Shown one piece after another: positions 4,933 through 10,172 of a stretch of 47,112 nt of DNA (positions are counted from its first letter, which is position 1; the number at the start of each line of letters is the position of its first letter). The notes beneath the pieces were generated by a model. It ran no database searches. It was not told the origin of the DNA and worked only from the letters and a program-made list of their open reading frames with translations. This DNA comes from a virus (lineage: Duplodnaviria > Heunggongvirae > Uroviricota > Caudoviricetes): IMG/VR virus record IMGVR_UViG_2585427763_000004; one strand, written 5' to 3'. A program made the position numbers and the translations under genes.

Positions 4933-5101
4933 GATGGCAGCCTCCGCGATGAATTTGATTAACTCACCACCGAGGTTTTCCACGACCATAAGGGTGGTGA
5001 GACGTACAGGGGTGGAAATACCGGTCATCACGGAACCCGGCCAGCCTTGCGGCTGCCCTGCACGCCCCACCATAATGCGAATGTGGCTGTGCTTAACGCA
5101 T

Positions 5102-5124
5102 AAAAAAACCGCCTGAGCGCGGTT
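5102..5124 (-). terminator. Rho-independent terminator (minus-strand transcription)
   Basis: Plus-strand sequence AAAAAAACCGCctgagcGCGGTT. On the minus strand this reads stem AACCGC / GCGGTT followed by a U7 run. Confidence 0.45.
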
Positions 5125-5775
5125 ATGCGCCGTGAATGATTTCGGGTTTCCACGCCCGGCACCCGTTTTATGAGGTGCAGGTGCACTATAATTCCACCCG
5201 TTCTGGTTTTCAATAGCTACATTCAACATTTTCTCTACCTTTCATCACCGAAGTGAACTTTGTTGATGCGGTGCCTGGTGCCTCCAGGTGACGTTAACCA
5301 GTTAACAATTAACGTCGGATACAGAGCATTCCCGTTACGCCCGTAAAAGACCGCTTGTTTTAACTGTTCCGCGTGCGCTGAGCCGCATTCACCGCATCAC
5401 AAAATTCACTTTAAAAAGGGCGGCAGAGCAGTCACGGAGTAGAACTGATACCGCCAAAAGTCACCAGAAAATTGATAACAGAGGGCGTTGCAGCGGAGTT
5501 GTCACTTAAGCGTATGGTCAACCTGACAACCCGGTGTCCTCAACGGGGGAAGGAATAACCCCGCCATACTTACCGCCGCGCCATTTCGCGGATTGCCACA
5601 ACCGGAAGCGCACGATCGAATTAAATTTAACGACGACCTATACAGAGAGACTAACTTCTCCGGGCGCTTTCGTGTTATGCCCTGACTTTTCAGGGATATA
5701 TCCTTTTCAGTAAACTGTCAGTGCCGGATTCTTATCCGTGTCCGGCGCACGCACTCTACCTCACCTGTGAATAAA

Positions 5776-6567: not shown

Positions 6568-7029
6568 CTACTGGTTACGTTTCTTTAGTGCCAGCATGTT
6601 CTCGAAGGCTTCCTCGTAGAGCTTGTTTAGTCCACGTAGCTGGTTAAGGAGTTTGGCTTTTTCTGACGCAGGTAGAATCTCGAAGAGGTTAAGTAACTCT
6701 GCCTGTTCTTCATTGACCAGCCTCCATCCTTTGCCTGAAAAGTTATCATCATAAGTATCTGATGATCTTACATAATTCATTAAGTCTTTAAGGTCTTCTC
6801 GAATGTCCTCTGGTTTTACCTTTAACAGAGCCGCAAATTTTAGCGCAGCGTCGGTATTTACCGGTATCTTGCCGTTCAGATACTGGCTAACGGTGCCTTG
6901 AGATTCGAATCCCAACAACTCAGCCGCCAGCTCTTGAGTCAGCTTCAGCTCTTTTTTTCTTGCATTCCATGCGGCTTTTAAATTCTTGCTCGCTTCTGGA
7001 GTTGCAATCACTTCGCGTGTTTTTTTCAT
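6568..7029 (-). CDS. Prophage repressor, HTH XRE/CI-type, without S24 peptidase domain
   Basis: 153-aa ORF with an N-terminal helix-turn-helix (LTQELAAELLGFESQGTVSQYLNGK). Divergently oriented to a Cro-like gene. No Ala-Gly/Ser-Lys autocleavage module visible. Confidence 0.75.
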   Translation of the reverse strand: MKKTREVIATPEASKNLKAAWNARKKELKLTQELAAELLGFESQGTVSQYLNGKIPVNTDAALKFAALLKVKPEDIREDLKDLMNYVRSSDTYDDNFSGKGWRLVNEEQAELLNLFEILPASEKAKLLNQLRGLNKLYEEAFENMLALKKRNQ

Positions 7030-7136
7030 ACATAGAGTTTATTTGTTTTACCAATATTATCAAAGATAGCCTGGCTATTGATCTTTAAAATTAGCGGGGC
7101 TAATATTTGCTCGAGGCATAACGTAGAAGGTTGGCT
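7030..7136. promoter_or_regulatory. Divergent promoter/operator region of the immunity switch
   Basis: 107-bp intergenic region between the divergent repressor and cro-like genes. Two palindromes with the same half-site: ATAGCCtGGCTAT (7066-7078) and TTAGCgggGCTAA (7091-7103), i.e. TAGC-N3-GCTA, centres 25 bp apart. Confidence 0.5.
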
Positions 7137-7412
7137 ATGAACTTAAGAGACTATTTAAAAGAGAAACATATCACCCAGCTACAGTTTGGGAAGCTAACGG
7201 GTTTATCTCAGGTGCATGTAAGTCGAGTGCTGGGGGGCTATGAAAGATTCAGCCCTGAAAAAGCATTACGTGTTGCTGAAGTAACGAATTTCGAGGTTAC
7301 ACCTCATGAACTCCGGCCTGATATTTACCCGAATCCAACCGACGGCTTACCTGTTGGATTCAAGGCTAACACACCAAATGCATCGGAGTTGATTCATGAA
7401 AATCAGGCATGA
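7137..7412 (+). CDS. Cro-like HTH regulator (YdaS-like)
   Basis: Track ORF begins at a TTG at 7131. The ATG at 7137 is preceded by GAAGG. HTH segment QLQFGKLTGLSQVHVSRVLGG. Divergent to the repressor. Confidence 0.7.
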   Translation: MNLRDYLKEKHITQLQFGKLTGLSQVHVSRVLGGYERFSPEKALRVAEVTNFEVTPHELRPDIYPNPTDGLPVGFKANTPNASELIHENQA

Positions 7413-7821
7413 GCACATCCGCATGGCGATGAATGCCTGGGCGCATCCGGACGGTGAAAAAGTTCCGGCAGCTGAAATAACCCGGGCTTATTTTGAGCTT
7501 GGTATGACGTTCCCGGAATTATATGACGACAGCCATCCGGAAGCCCTGGCTCGCAATACCCAGAAAATTTTCCGCTGGGTGGAGAAAGACACTCCTGATG
7601 CGGTTAAAAAAATTCAGGCGTTGTTACCAGCGATCGAAAAAGCAATGCCGCCTCTGCTGGTGGCCCGAATGCGCAGCCACAGTTCAGCTTATTTTCGGGA
7701 GCTGGTGGAGACGCGGGAACGACTGGTGAGAGACGCTGATGATTTTGTCGCAGTGGCGATCGCTGGTTTCAACCAGATGAATCGTGGTGGCCCGGCGGGA
7801 AATATTGTGGTTGTGCATTGA
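7396..7821 (+). CDS. YdaT-like protein (CII-like regulator family of Rac-type prophages)
   Basis: 141-aa ORF overlapping the 3' end of the cro-like gene. Sequence resembles Rac YdaT as recalled from memory. Assignment not verified by search. Confidence 0.55.
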   Translation: MKIRHEHIRMAMNAWAHPDGEKVPAAEITRAYFELGMTFPELYDDSHPEALARNTQKIFRWVEKDTPDAVKKIQALLPAIEKAMPPLLVARMRSHSSAYFRELVETRERLVRDADDFVAVAIAGFNQMNRGGPAGNIVVVH

Positions 7822-7892
7822 CTGACAATATTCATACCGGATCGCTTCCGGTAATTCGTGAGTAAAAAGATTCGGTATCAGAAGAGGTGAGT

Positions 7893-8933
7893 ATGGCTAA
7901 TGCCTGGCTCAGGTTATGGCATGACATGCCAAATGATCCTAAGTGGCGAACAATTTCCAGGGTGTCAGGACAGCCAATTGCAACAGTGATGGCGGTGTAT
8001 ATCCACCTTCTGGTGAGCGCGTCACGAAATGTCACGACATGTCACGGCGTGTCACTACGTGGTCACATTGATGTCACGACGGAAGATTTAGCAAGTGCGC
8101 TTGATGTGACGGAAGAAGTAATTGATTCAATTTTACAGGCAATGCAGGGGCGGGTACTTGATGGAGATTTAATCACCGGATGGGAAAAACGCCAGGTACT
8201 GAAAGAGGACAATGGCAACGTTTCACAAACCGCGAAATCCCCGGCAGAGCGCAAGAGAGCGCAGCGCGAGAGGGAAAAATTACGAAAACAGAATGAGGGG
8301 TGTCACGACGAGTCACGCATATGTCACGACATGTCACGACGAGTCACGACAGATAAAGATACAGATAAAGAATTAAACCCCACACATAACGCGCACGTGC
8401 GCGAGAGTGCTCCGACCAGTGAGTCGAGTGGTACGCCGTTGCAGGCAGCAGAACCTGCATCCCTGGATGGACTGAGCGAACCCATCGGGAAATTTCCGAT
8501 GGTCGATGACTGGCATCCGTCGCCGGATTTTCGACGACGGGCTGCGTTGTGGGGGATGGCTTTGCCGGAGCCGGAATTTACACCTGCTGAACTTGCCGCT
8601 TTCCGGGACTACTGGGCAGCGGAGGGGAAAGTTTTCACGCAGGTTCAGTGGGAGCAGAAATTCGCCCGTCACGTAAATCACGTCAGGGCGCAGGTTAAGC
8701 CAGTCAGCAAGGGGGTAAACCATGCAGCAGCACCAGGTGGCACCGCATCACGGGCAGTTCAGGAAATTCGGGCAGCACGTGAGCAGTGGGAACGTGAAAA
8801 CGGATTTATCAGCGACGGAAACGGTCTGGAAGCTGTGGGAACTCATGGGGGAGGTTTATTCGAACCGCTGGACCCAGAAGAACGGGGCCGCACCTTCGAA
8901 GCTCTGGATTGCACAGATTGGCGCGATGACTGA
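7893..8933 (+). CDS. Replication initiation protein (lambda O analogue; DnaT-like C-terminal domain suspected)
   Basis: ATG at 7893 preceded by GAAGAGG. Sits upstream of a P-like gene. Contains two in-frame arrays of TGTCACGAC-like iterons, as the lambda O gene contains ori. The last about 210 nt overlap the P-like ORF in another frame. Confidence 0.6.
   Translation: MANAWLRLWHDMPNDPKWRTISRVSGQPIATVMAVYIHLLVSASRNVTTCHGVSLRGHIDVTTEDLASALDVTEEVIDSILQAMQGRVLDGDLITGWEKRQVLKEDNGNVSQTAKSPAERKRAQREREKLRKQNEGCHDESRICHDMSRRVTTDKDTDKELNPTHNAHVRESAPTSESSGTPLQAAEPASLDGLSEPIGKFPMVDDWHPSPDFRRRAALWGMALPEPEFTPAELAAFRDYWAAEGKVFTQVQWEQKFARHVNHVRAQVKPVSKGVNHAAAPGGTASRAVQEIRAAREQWERENGFISDGNGLEAVGTHGGGLFEPLDPEERGRTFEALDCTDWRDD
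8020..8080 (+). repeat. Iteron array 1 (six direct GTCAC-containing repeats at about 10-11 bp spacing), candidate ori
   Basis: Read directly: GTCACgaaat GTCACgacat GTCACggcgt GTCACtacgt gGTCACattgat GTCACgac. An inverted GTGAC copy follows near 8106. Confidence 0.6.
8301..8350 (+). repeat. Iteron array 2 (five TGTCACGAC-like direct repeats) followed by an AT-rich tract
   Basis: Read directly: tGTCACgacg aGTCACgcat atGTCACgac atGTCACgac gaGTCACgac, then AGATAAAGATACAGATAAAGAATTAAA. Confidence 0.6.
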
Positions 8934-9387
8934 GCAGCAAATCCGACAGGTCTGCCGCCAGTGCATGGACCGCTGCCGGGCGGGTGAAACATGGCCTCCG
9001 GACCTGGCTGAGTTTGTGGCGCTGATTTCGGAGAGCGGAGCCAATCCATTCGGTCTGACGGTGGATGCTGTGATGGAGGAGTACCGCCGCTGGCGCAATG
9101 AGTCCTGGCGATATGACGGAAGTGATAAGTACCCGTGGCCTCAGCCTGTGCTGTATCACATTTGCCTTGAGATGCGTTCAAAGGGGATTGAGCGCCAGAT
9201 GACCGAAGGGGAATTAAAACGGCTTGCAGAACGGCAGCTGACGAAATGGGCAAAGCATGTTAGTAACGGCCTGAGCGTTCCGCCAGTCCGGCGACAACTG
9301 GCGGCACCCAAACGCCCGTCGGGGCCAACGCCAATTGAGTTGCTGAAACAGGAATATGAACGCCGGAAAGCGGCTGGGTTTGTCTGA
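8722..9387 (+). CDS. Replication protein P-like (DnaB helicase loader)
   Basis: 221-aa ORF. ATG at 8722 preceded by GGGGG at a 6-nt spacer. Central and C-terminal region aligns by eye with lambda P (YPWPQPVLYHICLEMRSKG versus lambda YPWKSNAHYWLVTNLY). In-frame alternative starts exist at 8845 and 8926. Confidence 0.7.
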   Translation: MQQHQVAPHHGQFRKFGQHVSSGNVKTDLSATETVWKLWELMGEVYSNRWTQKNGAAPSKLWIAQIGAMTEQQIRQVCRQCMDRCRAGETWPPDLAEFVALISESGANPFGLTVDAVMEEYRRWRNESWRYDGSDKYPWPQPVLYHICLEMRSKGIERQMTEGELKRLAERQLTKWAKHVSNGLSVPPVRRQLAAPKRPSGPTPIELLKQEYERRKAAGFV

Positions 9388-9419
9388 GTTGAGAAGTAAT
9401 TTTTACCGGGAGGAAATTT

Positions 9420-10172
9420 ATGGAGACTGTTTTTGACGCACTGAAAGCGATGGGAAAAGCCACGTCGGTAGAGCTGGCTGCGCGACTTGATATCAGTCGT
9501 GAAGAAGTGCTGAACGAACTATGGGAACTGAAAAAGGCTGGTTTCGTTGATAAAAGCGCGTACACCTGGCGTGTGGCTGATAACAACGTTCAGCAGGAAC
9601 AGCCAGCGCAGGCAGAACTGCCGGAAGAAACCACCACAGCAACAGTAGCGAAAATCTCAGAGTGCGATTTAACCGCAACGATTGAACAACGCGGACCACA
9701 AACGGCGGATGAACTGGCTACGTTTTTCGGCATCACATCACGCAAAGTGGCTTCAACGCTGGCAATGGCAATCAGTAAAGGTCGTCTGATTCGCGTTAAT
9801 CAGAACGGTAAATTTCGTTACTGCATGCCGGGCGATAATTTACCAGCAGAGCCGAAAGCTGCATCGGTAGCGGAAACTGATGGTAAAGCCTTTCCTCAGC
9901 CAGCCGGTGTTGCGTTACCAGTACTGGAAGCTGCAACACAGGAAGATATTAAAACCGAAACTGTGGCGGACATTGTGCAGTCGTTGCCATCGTTTACTGA
10001 AACGCAAGCGGATAACCTGATTTTACCATCGCTGCATATAGCAAATCGTGAACTGCGTCGGGCGAAAAGTCATGTCCAGAAGTGGGAACGAGTCTGCACC
10101 GCGCTGCGGGAGCTGAACAAGCACCGGGATATTCTTCGGGATATTACCGCGACCGGAGAGCTGCAGCGGTGA
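9420..10172 (+). CDS. Hypothetical protein with N-terminal winged-helix-like segment (DUF1627-like, tentative)
   Basis: 250-aa ORF in the nin-equivalent region. N-terminus [29 protein letters not shown] looks like a wHTH. Family name from memory. Confidence 0.5.

What the first reader, a model, noticed from the sequence alone, without database searches (positions are those of the whole stretch)
8011..8360. Two iteron arrays embedded in-frame in the O-like replication initiator gene
Six GTCAC-containing repeats (8020..8080) and five more (8301..8350), spaced about 10-11 bp apart (one helical turn), lie inside the O-like coding sequence; the second array is followed by an AT-rich tract. This mirrors lambda, where ori iterons lie inside O. 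The difference is that the repeats are split into two clusters about 280 bp apart, with an inverted GTGAC copy near 8106. The reading frame is preserved through both arrays.
Basis: seen in the sequence. Interest (0 to 1): 0.45.

Follow-up and report, generated by a model that had tools for sequence, protein, structure and literature searches.

The report
Split replication origin inside initiator gene
The two clusters of GTCAC repeats are real and almost certainly binding sites of a prophage replication origin that sits inside the gene of its own initiator protein; the same two-cluster layout is conserved, with matching changes of repeat sequence, in related prophages across the Proteobacteria, but nobody has yet shown binding or replication experimentally.

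Summary
GTCAC occurs on the + strand at 8021, 8031, 8041, 8051, 8062 and 8073, and again at 8302, 8312, 8323, 8333 and 8343. An inverted copy lies at 8106. An AT- and purine-rich tract (8349-8380) follows the second array.

All of this lies in one open frame, 7893..8933. The protein has a DnaD/RepA_N-like winged-helix N-terminal domain, a disordered linker and a DnaT-like ssDNA-binding domain. A lambda-P-like helicase loader follows. The protein is not a lambda O homologue.

Comparative evidence shows selection on the DNA itself:
- In 21 relatives from genomes of 34-69% GC, the codons under array 1 are synonymously frozen, while the rest of the domain is saturated.
- In 35 distinct close relatives, 0 of 30 core positions vary, against 10 of 30 spacer positions.
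- At least four iteron types (GTCACG, CGAACGC, GTAACG, GCAACGC) each occupy both arrays at the same gene positions.
- Only the N-terminal domain always travels with the arrays.

Best reading: an in-gene, iteron-plus-unwinding-element origin of the lambda O, pSK41 Rep and SPP1 gp38 kind. Its added feature is a conserved second array inside the sequence that codes for the DNA-binding domain. The role of that array (enhancer or control) is unresolved. I rate it a new variant of a known kind. No binding or replication has been tested.

The parts
7893..8933 (+). Replication initiator gene (346 aa). It comprises an N-terminal winged-helix domain (aa 1-~135), a disordered linker (aa ~136-200) and a DnaT-like ssDNA-binding domain (aa 201-267).
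8019..8080 (+). Array 1: six direct iterons with core GTCAC(G) at 8021, 8031, 8041, 8051, 8062 and 8073. It codes aa 43-63, the end of helix 1 and the beta segment before helix 2 of the winged helix.
   Evidence: Codons 43-55 are synonymously frozen in 21 distant relatives. In 35 distinct close relatives, 0 of 30 core positions vary against 10 of 30 spacer positions. Most relatives have 4 copies; the window has a 21-nt, 7-codon insertion.
8106..8110 (-). Single inverted iteron core (GTGAC on the + strand), 33 bp after the last copy of array 1. It codes V72-T73.
   Evidence: It is present at the equivalent position (gene nt 193) in most GTCAC-class relatives. The Val codon there is GTG in 18 of 18. 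It is lost or altered in a few close relatives, so support is weaker than for the arrays.
8300..8348 (+). Array 2: five direct iterons with core GTCACG at 8302, 8312, 8323, 8333 and 8343. It codes aa 137-152 of the disordered linker.
   Evidence: Every GTCAC-class relative has 3-6 copies at 10-bp spacing. Compensating 1-nt indels change the peptide but keep the cores.
8349..8380 (+). AT- and purine-rich tract, the candidate DNA unwinding element. It contains two 11-nt repeats ACAGATAAAGA (8349-8359 and 8361-8371) and is translated as DKDTDKE. It is also the mosaic recombination joint.
   Evidence: AT-richest 30-nt window of the gene, 23% GC. The equivalent (GATAAA/GATACA/GAGAAG)n tract abuts array 2 in nearly all 36 relatives examined, even in genomes of 60-69% GC. 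Homology to Evi/Tritos ends here and homology to Rac-SA53/PPompW starts here.
8390..8403 (.). Perfect 14-bp palindrome CGCGCACGTGCGCG just right of the AT tract. Whether it belongs to the origin is uncertain.
   Evidence: It belongs to the C-terminal module shared with Rac-SA53. It is partly deleted in some close relatives.
8845..9387 (+). Lambda-P-like helicase loader gene. The start is ambiguous, 8845 or 8926, and the frame is open from 8722.
   Evidence: Pfam Phage_lambda_P PF06992, E=2.5e-16. phrog_109 'P-like helicase loader', E=6e-64. BLASTP against lambda P, E=6e-7.

Best explanation
The region is the prophage's origin of replication, laid inside the gene of its own initiator.

Inferred mechanism:
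1. The initiator's N-terminal winged-helix domain binds the GTCAC(G) cores. These lie one helical turn apart and all in the same orientation, so bound monomers line up on one face of the DNA.
2. The filament on array 2 (8300-8348) destabilises the adjoining AT/purine-rich tract (8349-8380).
3. The C-terminal DnaT-like domain holds the exposed single strand, contacts the lambda-P-like loader, or both. The loader brings in host DnaB.
4. Array 1 (8019-8080), 229 bp upstream and inside the sequence coding the DNA-binding domain, is a second cluster of sites for the same protein. With its inverted copy at 8106 it most likely pairs with array 2 through protein-protein contacts, looping out the intervening ~230 bp. 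The outcome would be either stimulation of opening or limitation of initiation.

Shown here by computation:
- The repeats exist.
- They are under DNA-level selection.
- They change sequence together in the two arrays.
- They always accompany the N-terminal domain.
- Array 2 always abuts the AT tract.

Inferred only: binding, unwinding, loader recruitment, looping, and whether array 1 acts positively or negatively.
For: 1. Non-random, helically phased clusters.

2. DNA-level selection. In 21 relatives from genomes of 34-69% GC, codons 43-55 are GCG TCA CGn AAT GTC ACG CGn GGT CAC Gnn GAT GTC ACG, with codon entropy of about 0. Invariant residues elsewhere (R7, L8, R19 and others) show 2.0-2.3 bits. 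In 35 distinct close relatives, 0 of 30 core positions vary, against 10 of 30 spacer positions and 24% of positions elsewhere. Array 2 keeps its cores through frame-shifting indel pairs.

3. Matching changes in the two arrays. The GTCACG, CGAACGC, GTAACG(C) and GCAACGC classes, and a CGTCACG variant, each occupy both arrays at about gene nt 130-180 and 355-450. This holds down to 36% protein identity in Ralstonia phage Firinga. Among 150 50%-identity representatives, the peptide signatures of the two regions agree in all but one case where both could be classed.

4. Array 2 is followed directly by the AT-richest, purine-skewed stretch of the gene in nearly all relatives.

5. Within +/-2 kb of 20 GTCAC-class loci, only the N-terminal domain is always present (20/20). 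The YdaT-like and YdaS-like genes are each found in 2/20, the cI-like gene in 0/20, and the DnaT domain and P-like gene in 3/20 each.

6. The domain plan matches known in-gene origins: a DnaD/RepA_N-like winged helix, a disordered linker encoded by array 2 plus the AT tract, and a C-terminal DnaT ssDNA-binding domain 59% identical to the solved one, with a P-like loader next.

7. The mosaic joint falls exactly at the AT tract, as expected if the N-domain and its sites form one specificity module and the C-domain and loader form another.

8. Gene order is cI-like, cro-like, cII-like, initiator, loader, as in lambda.
Against: - No experiment exists. I found no paper on this family's origin.
- Array 1 has no AT-rich tract of its own that is conserved in GC-rich relatives, so it is not a second complete origin. 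Its role is open.
- The distance between the arrays is not held in strict helical phase across relatives. Last-copy to last-copy distances include 249, 258, 261, 267, 270 and 339 bp. This weakens a rigid looping model.
- A few low-GC or distant members (L028, L034, L039, Microcystis phage) lack a recognisable array 1.
- The putative recognition helix (AMQGRVLDG) is almost identical across iteron classes, so how specificity is read is unexplained.
- The AT tract in this window is short, about 30 bp.
- No DnaA or IHF sites are present. That is neutral, since lambda also lacks DnaA dependence.
Confidence: 0.8

Rival explanations
1. Array 2 plus the AT tract is the origin proper. Array 1 is a negative-control locus, not a stimulatory part of the origin. 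It would titrate initiator, pair with array 2 to block it ('handcuffing'), or act as a roadblock that lowers transcription of the initiator and loader genes when initiator is abundant. The plasmid precedents are the second iteron sets incA of P1 and incC of mini-F (from my own knowledge of those plasmids).
For: Array 1 lacks an adjacent conserved AT tract. It lies 130-190 nt into the gene, where bound protein would meet elongating RNA polymerase. Its copy number has grown independently in several lineages: the window (+2), L027, L007, and L014/L025/L029. Such growth is easy for a titration site. Strict helical phasing between the arrays is absent.
Against: Nothing computed here separates positive from negative action. 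A phage that replicates lytically has less obvious need for copy-number control than a plasmid. The position of array 1 is conserved to within 1-2 nt over very deep divergence, which a pure titration sink would not require.
Confidence: 0.35
2. The repeats are sites for some other protein, such as a host factor or the cI-, cro- or cII-like regulators, and have nothing to do with the initiator.
For: No binding data exist. The recognition helix of the N-domain is nearly invariant across iteron classes.
Against: Only the N-terminal domain co-occurs with the arrays in 20 of 20 loci. The upstream regulators and the downstream genes are replaced freely. Different iteron classes occur in the same host genera: Pseudomonas (L010 against L035) and Enterobacter (L029, which has only one GTCAC and carries GTAACG copies, against the GTCAC-type peptide signature NVTRGH of the Enterobacter proteins P0053 and P0055). 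This argues against a host factor. The iteron class tracks class-specific residues in the N-domain, namely the array-1-coded segment and the basic helix ERxRxxRE.
Confidence: 0.05
3. The repeats reflect a repeated peptide, or are neutral by-products of duplication and gene conversion, with no function at the DNA level.
For: The arrays are translated. The 21-nt insertion in array 1 resembles array 2 (90% over 30 nt), so sequence exchange between the arrays probably occurs.
Against: The motif cycles through all three codon phases. Synonymous sites under the cores are frozen across genomes of 34-69% GC, including rare codons such as TCA, GGT and AAT in GC-rich hosts. The array-2 peptide changes by frame shifts while the cores stay.
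Confidence: 0.01
4. The arrays are protein-binding sites for a function other than initiation, such as exclusion of related superinfecting phages by soaking up their initiator, a fork barrier, or a partition-like site.
For: A prophage-borne array of initiator sites could titrate the initiator of an incoming phage of the same class. SPP1 gp38 bound at its second site is proposed to stall forks (PMC6316719).
Against: Direct repeats abutting a purine-rich AT tract, in the linker of an initiator that is followed by a helicase loader, is the signature layout of lambda, pSK41 and SPP1 origins. These other roles could be additional rather than alternative.
Confidence: 0.05

Closest known systems
Phage lambda ori-lambda inside gene O, with P as helicase loader
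   Same: The origin lies inside the initiator gene, at a very similar place: lambda iterons at O nt 349-433, array 2 here at nt 410-456. The iterons are followed by an AT-rich tract and then a palindrome. N-terminal half plus sites form the specificity module, and C-terminal half plus loader form the other module. Gene order is cI-cro-cII-initiator-loader. A true, distant P homologue follows.
   Different: The initiator is not homologous to O. The iterons here are 5-6-bp asymmetric cores every 10-11 bp, all in direct orientation. They are not four 18-bp sites about 20-24 bp apart, which, from my own knowledge, have internal dyad symmetry. A second array plus an inverted copy lies 229 bp upstream inside the DNA-binding-domain coding sequence, which lambda lacks. 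The C-terminal domain is DnaT-like.
RepA_N plasmid initiators (staphylococcal pSK41 Rep)
   Different: There is no sequence-level match: the Pfam scan of the N-domain at E<=10 returned only a Crp-type HTH, not RepA_N. This is a Gram-negative prophage, not a Gram-positive plasmid. The C-domain is DnaT-like and is paired with a lambda-P-like loader. There is an extra array within the N-domain coding region.
Bacillus phage SPP1 replisome organizer gp38 and oriL
   Same: gp38 binds direct repeats of oriL, which lie within gene 38 next to an AT-rich unwinding element. A helicase loader and helicase follow. A second set of gp38 sites exists elsewhere (PMC6316719). PGAP names some members of the present family 'phage replisome organizer', and there are weak PHROG hits to replisome-organizer families.
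   Different: SPP1's second site, oriR, is about 13 kb away and has its own AT-rich region. Here the second array is 229 bp away, inside the same gene, and has none. Homology to gp38 is only weakly supported (PHROG E=4e-5 to 2e-3, and no Pfam Phage_rep_org_N hit).
Iteron plasmids with two iteron sets around the rep gene (P1 incC/incA, mini-F incB/incC); from my own knowledge, not checked here
   Same: There are two clusters of sites for the same initiator. One is next to the unwinding region and the other lies a few hundred bp away. In those plasmids the second set controls copy number by titration and pairing.
   Different: In those plasmids the arrays flank the rep gene. Here both are translated parts of it. 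The initiators are unrelated (RepA/RepE type).
E. coli primosomal protein DnaT
   Same: The C-terminal domain (aa 201-267) matches the solved DnaT ssDNA-binding domain at 50-60% identity.
   Different: Only that domain matches. The NCBIfam DnaT equivalog score is 97 against a cutoff of 201. The N-terminal two-thirds of the protein is unrelated to DnaT.

Membership tests
Lambda O / ori-lambda | Initiator protein homologous to lambda O | tested here: not met
   hhalign of the 77-sequence family profile against lambda O gave probability 0.06%, E=0.73. Pfam scans returned no O-family hit.
Lambda O / ori-lambda | Origin inside the initiator gene: an iteron array followed by an AT-rich tract in the mid-gene linker | tested here: met
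   Array 2 occupies gene nt 410-456, followed by the AT-richest 30 nt of the gene. Lambda's iterons lie at O nt 349-433. Function is not tested.
Lambda O / ori-lambda | Iterons are four 18-bp sites (as annotated in NC_001416), which from my own knowledge have internal dyad symmetry and each bind an O dimer | tested here: not met
   The units here are 10-11 bp with an asymmetric 5-6-bp core, all in direct orientation. Lambda's are annotated as 18-bp sites.
Lambda O / ori-lambda | Partner helicase loader of the lambda P family immediately downstream | tested here: met
   PF06992, E=2.5e-16. BLASTP against lambda P, E=6e-7.
RepA_N / DnaD-like initiators with an in-gene origin (pSK41 type) | N-terminal DnaD-like winged-helix DNA-binding domain | tested here: inconclusive
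RepA_N / DnaD-like initiators with an in-gene origin (pSK41 type) | Initiator sites located centrally in the gene and encoding a linker between two domains | tested here: met
   Array 2 and the AT tract code aa 137-160, inside the segment 136-200 with pLDDT about 50 and no secondary structure. The linker sequence and frame vary freely among relatives. The pSK41 description comes from PMC5703833.
SPP1 gp38-type phage replisome organizer | Sequence membership of the N-terminal organizer domain | tested here: inconclusive
   There are weak PHROG hits to 'replisome organizer' families 4880 (E=3.9e-5) and 5968 (E=2e-3), and to 'DnaD-like helicase loader' 10469 (E=2e-7). There is no Pfam hit at E<=10.
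Iteron-type origin in general | The initiator binds the repeats and opens the adjacent AT-rich DNA | not testable with these tools
   This needs gel-shift or footprinting assays and permanganate probing. The only evidence here is indirect: co-inheritance and matching sequence changes.
Iteron-type origin in general | Repeats conserved as DNA, independently of the coding requirement | tested here: met
   Codon entropy is about 0 under the array-1 cores, against 1-2.4 bits elsewhere. 0 of 30 core positions vary, against 10 of 30 spacer positions.
DnaT (primosomal protein I) | Full-length orthology to DnaT | tested here: not met
   NCBIfam equivalog NF002770 scores 97.4 against a cutoff of 201, and only profile positions 80-166 match.
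DnaT (primosomal protein I) | DnaT C-terminal ssDNA-binding domain | tested here: met

The most novel reading that the evidence does not exclude
Array 1 is not just a spare set of sites. This segment lies between helix 1 and helix 2 of the winged helix. Apart from a basic helix, it is the only part of the domain that differs between iteron classes.

If that segment contributes to sequence recognition, site and reader are physically the same piece of DNA. Exchange between the two arrays, for which there is a hint in the 21-nt insertion, would then spread a new specificity to the origin proper. That would be a built-in route for evolving new, mutually incompatible origin specificities.
Probability: 0.1. 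Interest if true: 0.8.

Novelty: new variant of a known kind. Interest (0 to 1): 0.55.

Why it matters
In-gene origins are textbook for lambda, SPP1 and pSK41. This initiator family, however, appears to have no described origin. It has about 1,700 clusters at 50% identity. DNA matching part of the 7893-9387 fragment (initiator and/or P-like loader gene) occurs in 2,545 of 5,426 complete E. coli genomes, including O157 prophages.

The comparative pattern gives three things:
1. A precise, testable origin map for a common class of enterobacterial, Pseudomonas, Bordetella and Chromobacterium prophages.
2. A natural series of at least four iteron specificities on one protein scaffold, which suits study of how origin specificity and incompatibility evolve.
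3. A clean example of dual coding. A DNA-binding domain tolerates, and has kept over very deep divergence, an array of its own presumed binding sites within its coding sequence.

It also explains why synonymous sites in this gene are frozen, and why recombination between replication modules lands on the AT tract.

Tried and rejected
- **Window-wide enrichment of GTCAC.** There is none (89 against 86). Only the clustering is significant.
- **A possible third cluster at 5431/5460/5501.** Rejected. Spacing is irregular, flanks differ, and two of the three copies lie inside the DicF sRNA gene.
- **Other TGTCACGAC-like clusters in the 47-kb window.** None found.
- **Homology to lambda O.** Rejected.
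- **Pfam assignment of the N-domain.** Nothing usable.
- **DnaA boxes and IHF sites in or between the arrays.** None.
- **Promoter and terminator scan of 6900-9500.** At background level. The only terminator-like hits are the palindrome at 8390-8403, on the minus strand.
- **Array 1 as a second complete origin.** Rejected. The modest AT-richness at 8100-8139 is not conserved in GC-rich relatives.
- **Conserved helical phasing between the arrays.** Not found.
- **Literature searches for this family's origin.** I searched on iterons, replisome organizer, DnaT-like, oriJ, ydaU, GTCACG and the Stx-phage 'Eru' replication modules. Nothing relevant turned up.
- **Rac-SA53 YdaU-type initiator for the same two-array plan.** It has only a 10-bp inverted repeat before the shared AT tract.
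- **Peptide-regex classing of 150 representatives.** Crude. Several apparent mismatches were regex failures rather than real discordance.
Full report
**What is in the sequence**

GTCAC lies on the + strand at 8021, 8031, 8041, 8051, 8062 and 8073 (spacing 10, 10, 10, 11, 11). It recurs at 8302, 8312, 8323, 8333 and 8343 (spacing 10, 11, 10, 10). One inverted copy, GTGAC on the + strand, is at 8106. Most copies extend to GTCACG, often TGTCACGAC.

The motif is not enriched over the whole window: 89 found against 86 expected. Its clustering is extreme. There are 6 copies in 60 bp and 11 in 350 bp. The maxima in 300 Markov-1 randomisations were 3 and 5. No other 5-mer reaches more than 5 copies in 60 bp.

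The G of the core falls in all three codon positions, so this is a DNA repeat and not a peptide repeat. The ORF 7893..8933 is open throughout. Directly after the last copy comes ACAGATAAAGATACAGATAAAGAATTAAAC. This is the AT-richest 30 nt of the gene (23% GC), with 77% purines on the top strand. A perfect palindrome, CGCGCACGTGCGCG, follows at 8390-8403.

**The gene and its neighbours**

The 346-aa product has a C-terminal DnaT ssDNA-binding domain:
- Pfam PF17948, E=1e-17.
- 59% identity to the solved DnaT84-153 structure.
- It is not a full DnaT orthologue.

Its N-terminal 135 residues match PHROG 'replication initiation protein' families and, weakly, 'replisome organizer' and 'DnaD-like' families. 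They match no Pfam family.

The AlphaFold2 model was built on 77 homologues. It gives:
- a confident winged helix (helices 29-45, 63-70 and 74-84, plus a wing);
- a basic helix at 117-135;
- a disordered stretch at 136-200;
- the DnaT domain.

Array 1 codes residues 43-63, the end of helix 1 and the beta segment before helix 2 (pLDDT about 73). Array 2 and the AT tract code residues 137-160 of the disordered linker.

The next gene is a lambda-P-family helicase loader. Upstream lie a cI/DicA-like repressor on the other strand, a YdaS/Cro-like gene and a YdaT-like gene. That is the lambda early-right gene order. The initiator itself is not related to lambda O (hhalign probability 0.06%).

**Selection acts on the DNA**

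A scan of one genome per species returned 47 loci encoding the N-domain, from Enterobacterales, Pseudomonas, Bordetella, Chromobacterium, Aquitalea, Acidovorax, Castellaniella, Pseudothauera, Gilvimarinus, Entomomonas and others.

In about 22 of these loci, from genomes of 34% to 69% GC, the layout is the same:
- GTCAC sits at gene nt 129, 139, 149 and 160.
- GTGAC sits at nt 193.
- A further 3-5 GTCAC copies lie at 10-bp spacing around nt 380-430.
- These always run straight into an (A)GATAAAGATAAAGA-type tract.

In a codon alignment of 21 of these loci, codons 43-55 read GCG TCA CGn AAT GTC ACG CGn GGT CAC Gnn GAT GTC ACG. Codon entropy there is essentially zero, including TCA, GGT and AAT in GC-rich hosts. 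Invariant residues elsewhere in the same domain use their synonymous codons freely, at 1-2.4 bits.

Among 35 distinct close relatives from IMG/VR, none of the 30 core positions of array 1 varies. Ten of 30 spacer positions vary, as do 24% of positions elsewhere.

In array 2, paired 1-nt indels change the peptide (ICHDMSRR, RVTHLSRQ, NVTHMSRR) while the cores stay.

Copy number varies in whole units. Array 1 has 4 or 6 copies and array 2 has 4, 5 or 6. The window's six-copy array 1 is a 21-nt, 7-codon insertion relative to most of the family. That insertion resembles array 2.

**The two arrays change sequence together**

Other branches of the family have no GTCAC. They carry a different short repeat at the same two places:
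- CGAACGC in L032, L033, L035, L037, L038, L040, L045 and L046. An example is nt 131, 141, 151 and 362, 372.
- GTAACG(C) in L007, L025, L029 and L036.
- A CGTCACG variant in L014.
- GCAACGC in Ralstonia phage Firinga, which is only 36% identical, at nt 130, 140, 151, 161, 182 and 401, 411, 421, 431.

In each class array 2 again abuts a purine-rich AT tract, translated as DK, DT or EK repeats.

An exhaustive search found about 1,700 clusters at 50% identity. Among the best 150, the peptide signatures of the two regions agree in class. There is one apparent exception, P0238, apart from cases my crude patterns could not class.

Within +/-2 kb of 20 GTCAC-class loci, the only coding element always present is the N-domain. 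Regulators upstream, and the C-domain and loader downstream, are exchanged freely. Different classes occur in the same host genera. The binder is therefore most simply the N-domain itself, not a host factor or a neighbouring regulator.

The mosaic structure says the same. Window 7893-8371 matches phages Evi and Tritos at 86%. From 8351/8367 onward the window matches Rac-SA53 and PPompW at 94%. The joint falls exactly on the AT tract.

**How it most likely works**

The layout is direct repeats one helical turn apart, then an AT/purine-rich tract, in the linker of an initiator followed by a helicase loader. This is the layout of three known systems:
- ori-lambda, with iterons at O nt 349-433;
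- pSK41 Rep, whose N-domain binds Rep boxes centrally within rep and whose linker is encoded by the origin (PMC5703833);
- SPP1 oriL within gene 38 (PMC6316719).

I therefore read array 2 plus 8349-8380 as the site of initiator loading and DNA opening. The DnaT-like domain and the P-like protein would deliver DnaB.

Array 1 with its inverted copy is a conserved second cluster of sites for the same protein. Its position is conserved to within 1-2 nt across classes, which suggests architecture (pairing or looping with array 2 over about 230 bp) rather than a mere sink. However, the inter-array distance is not held in strict helical phase, and array 1 has no unwinding tract of its own. Whether it stimulates or restrains initiation cannot be decided here.

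None of the binding, opening or looping steps has been tested.

**An unresolved point**

The putative recognition helix (AMQGRVLDG) is nearly identical in all classes. The class-specific parts of the domain are the array-1-coded segment and the basic helix (ERKREQRER, ERAKRWRxAQK or ERxREYRERKK).

One of these presumably reads the variable 5' half of the iteron. All classes share an ACG in the 3' half. I give this reading a low probability, but it is the most novel one not excluded.

**Novelty**

The kind of system is known. The initiator family, its iterons, and above all the conserved second array inside the coding sequence of the DNA-binding domain are, as far as my searches reach, undescribed. 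So is the matched switching of both arrays between at least four sequence classes. I rate it a new variant of a known kind, of moderate interest.

Noticed in passing
window 5000-5469, minus strand: Three Rfam sRNA genes above gathering score: DicF (5418-5469), isrK (5102-5178) and C4 antisense RNA (5000-5077, cut at the search boundary). Two of the three stray GTCAC hits near 5431-5501 lie inside DicF.
   Followed up: partly
window 8722-8933: The lambda-P-like reading frame is open from 8722 and overlaps the end of the initiator gene by up to 212 nt. The true start is ambiguous: 8845 (supported by PHROG and Pfam alignment starts) or 8926 (8-nt overlap, as annotated in Rac-SA53). One PHROG profile (15931) covers both ORFs as if they were fused in some phages.
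   Followed up: partly
window 8390-8403: A perfect 14-bp palindrome, CGCGCACGTGCGCG, lies just right of the AT tract. On the minus strand it is terminator-like. It recalls the palindrome right of lambda's AT-rich region, but it is partly deleted in some close relatives.
   Followed up: partly
window 8349-8371; L002 (Rac-SA53) 2441-2540: The AT tract is a recombination joint shared with an unrelated YdaU-type N-terminal domain in Rac-SA53. That gene has no GTCAC arrays. It has a perfect 10-bp inverted repeat, TGTTCAAACA/TGTTTGAACA, about 30 bp before the same tract, possibly its own initiator site.
   Followed up: partly
window 8029-8058 and 8321-8350: The extra 21 nt that gives array 1 six copies instead of four is 90% identical over 30 nt to part of array 2. 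This hints at sequence exchange between the two arrays, which could keep them matched.
   Followed up: no
L025, L029, L007, L036 (GTAACG-class relatives): GTAACG iterons never sit in the codon phase that would read TAA. Where the 10-11-bp rhythm would require that phase, a copy is skipped and the spacing becomes 21 bp. This is a visible compromise between coding and site spacing.
   Followed up: partly
L041 and L049 (Serratia MAG, Pantoea), gene nt ~320-480: The same N-terminal domain is fused to a different C-terminus (YYVY...GIS.NPWAR motif). It has CTACGTA-type DNA repeats instead of the usual array 2 and AT tract. It may be a different kind of protein built on the same DNA-binding domain.
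   Followed up: no
protein P0238 (50%-identity representative): This is the only apparent class-discordant member among 150. Its array-1 region has the CGAACGC-type peptide (NASERGRT), but its linker has GTCAC-type peptides (SRDVTQSH). It may be a recombinant between specificity classes.
   Followed up: no
window 8212-8376 (+2 frame); protein P0038: A database protein (P0038) equals the initiator N-terminus joined to this alternative frame. It is a frameshifted variant or an assembly error of the same gene.
   Followed up: no
window 9420-10172: Downstream of the loader gene is a 250-aa protein with an N-terminal HTH and a DUF1627 domain (E=1e-96). Its function is unknown. It is apparently part of the same early operon.
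   Followed up: no
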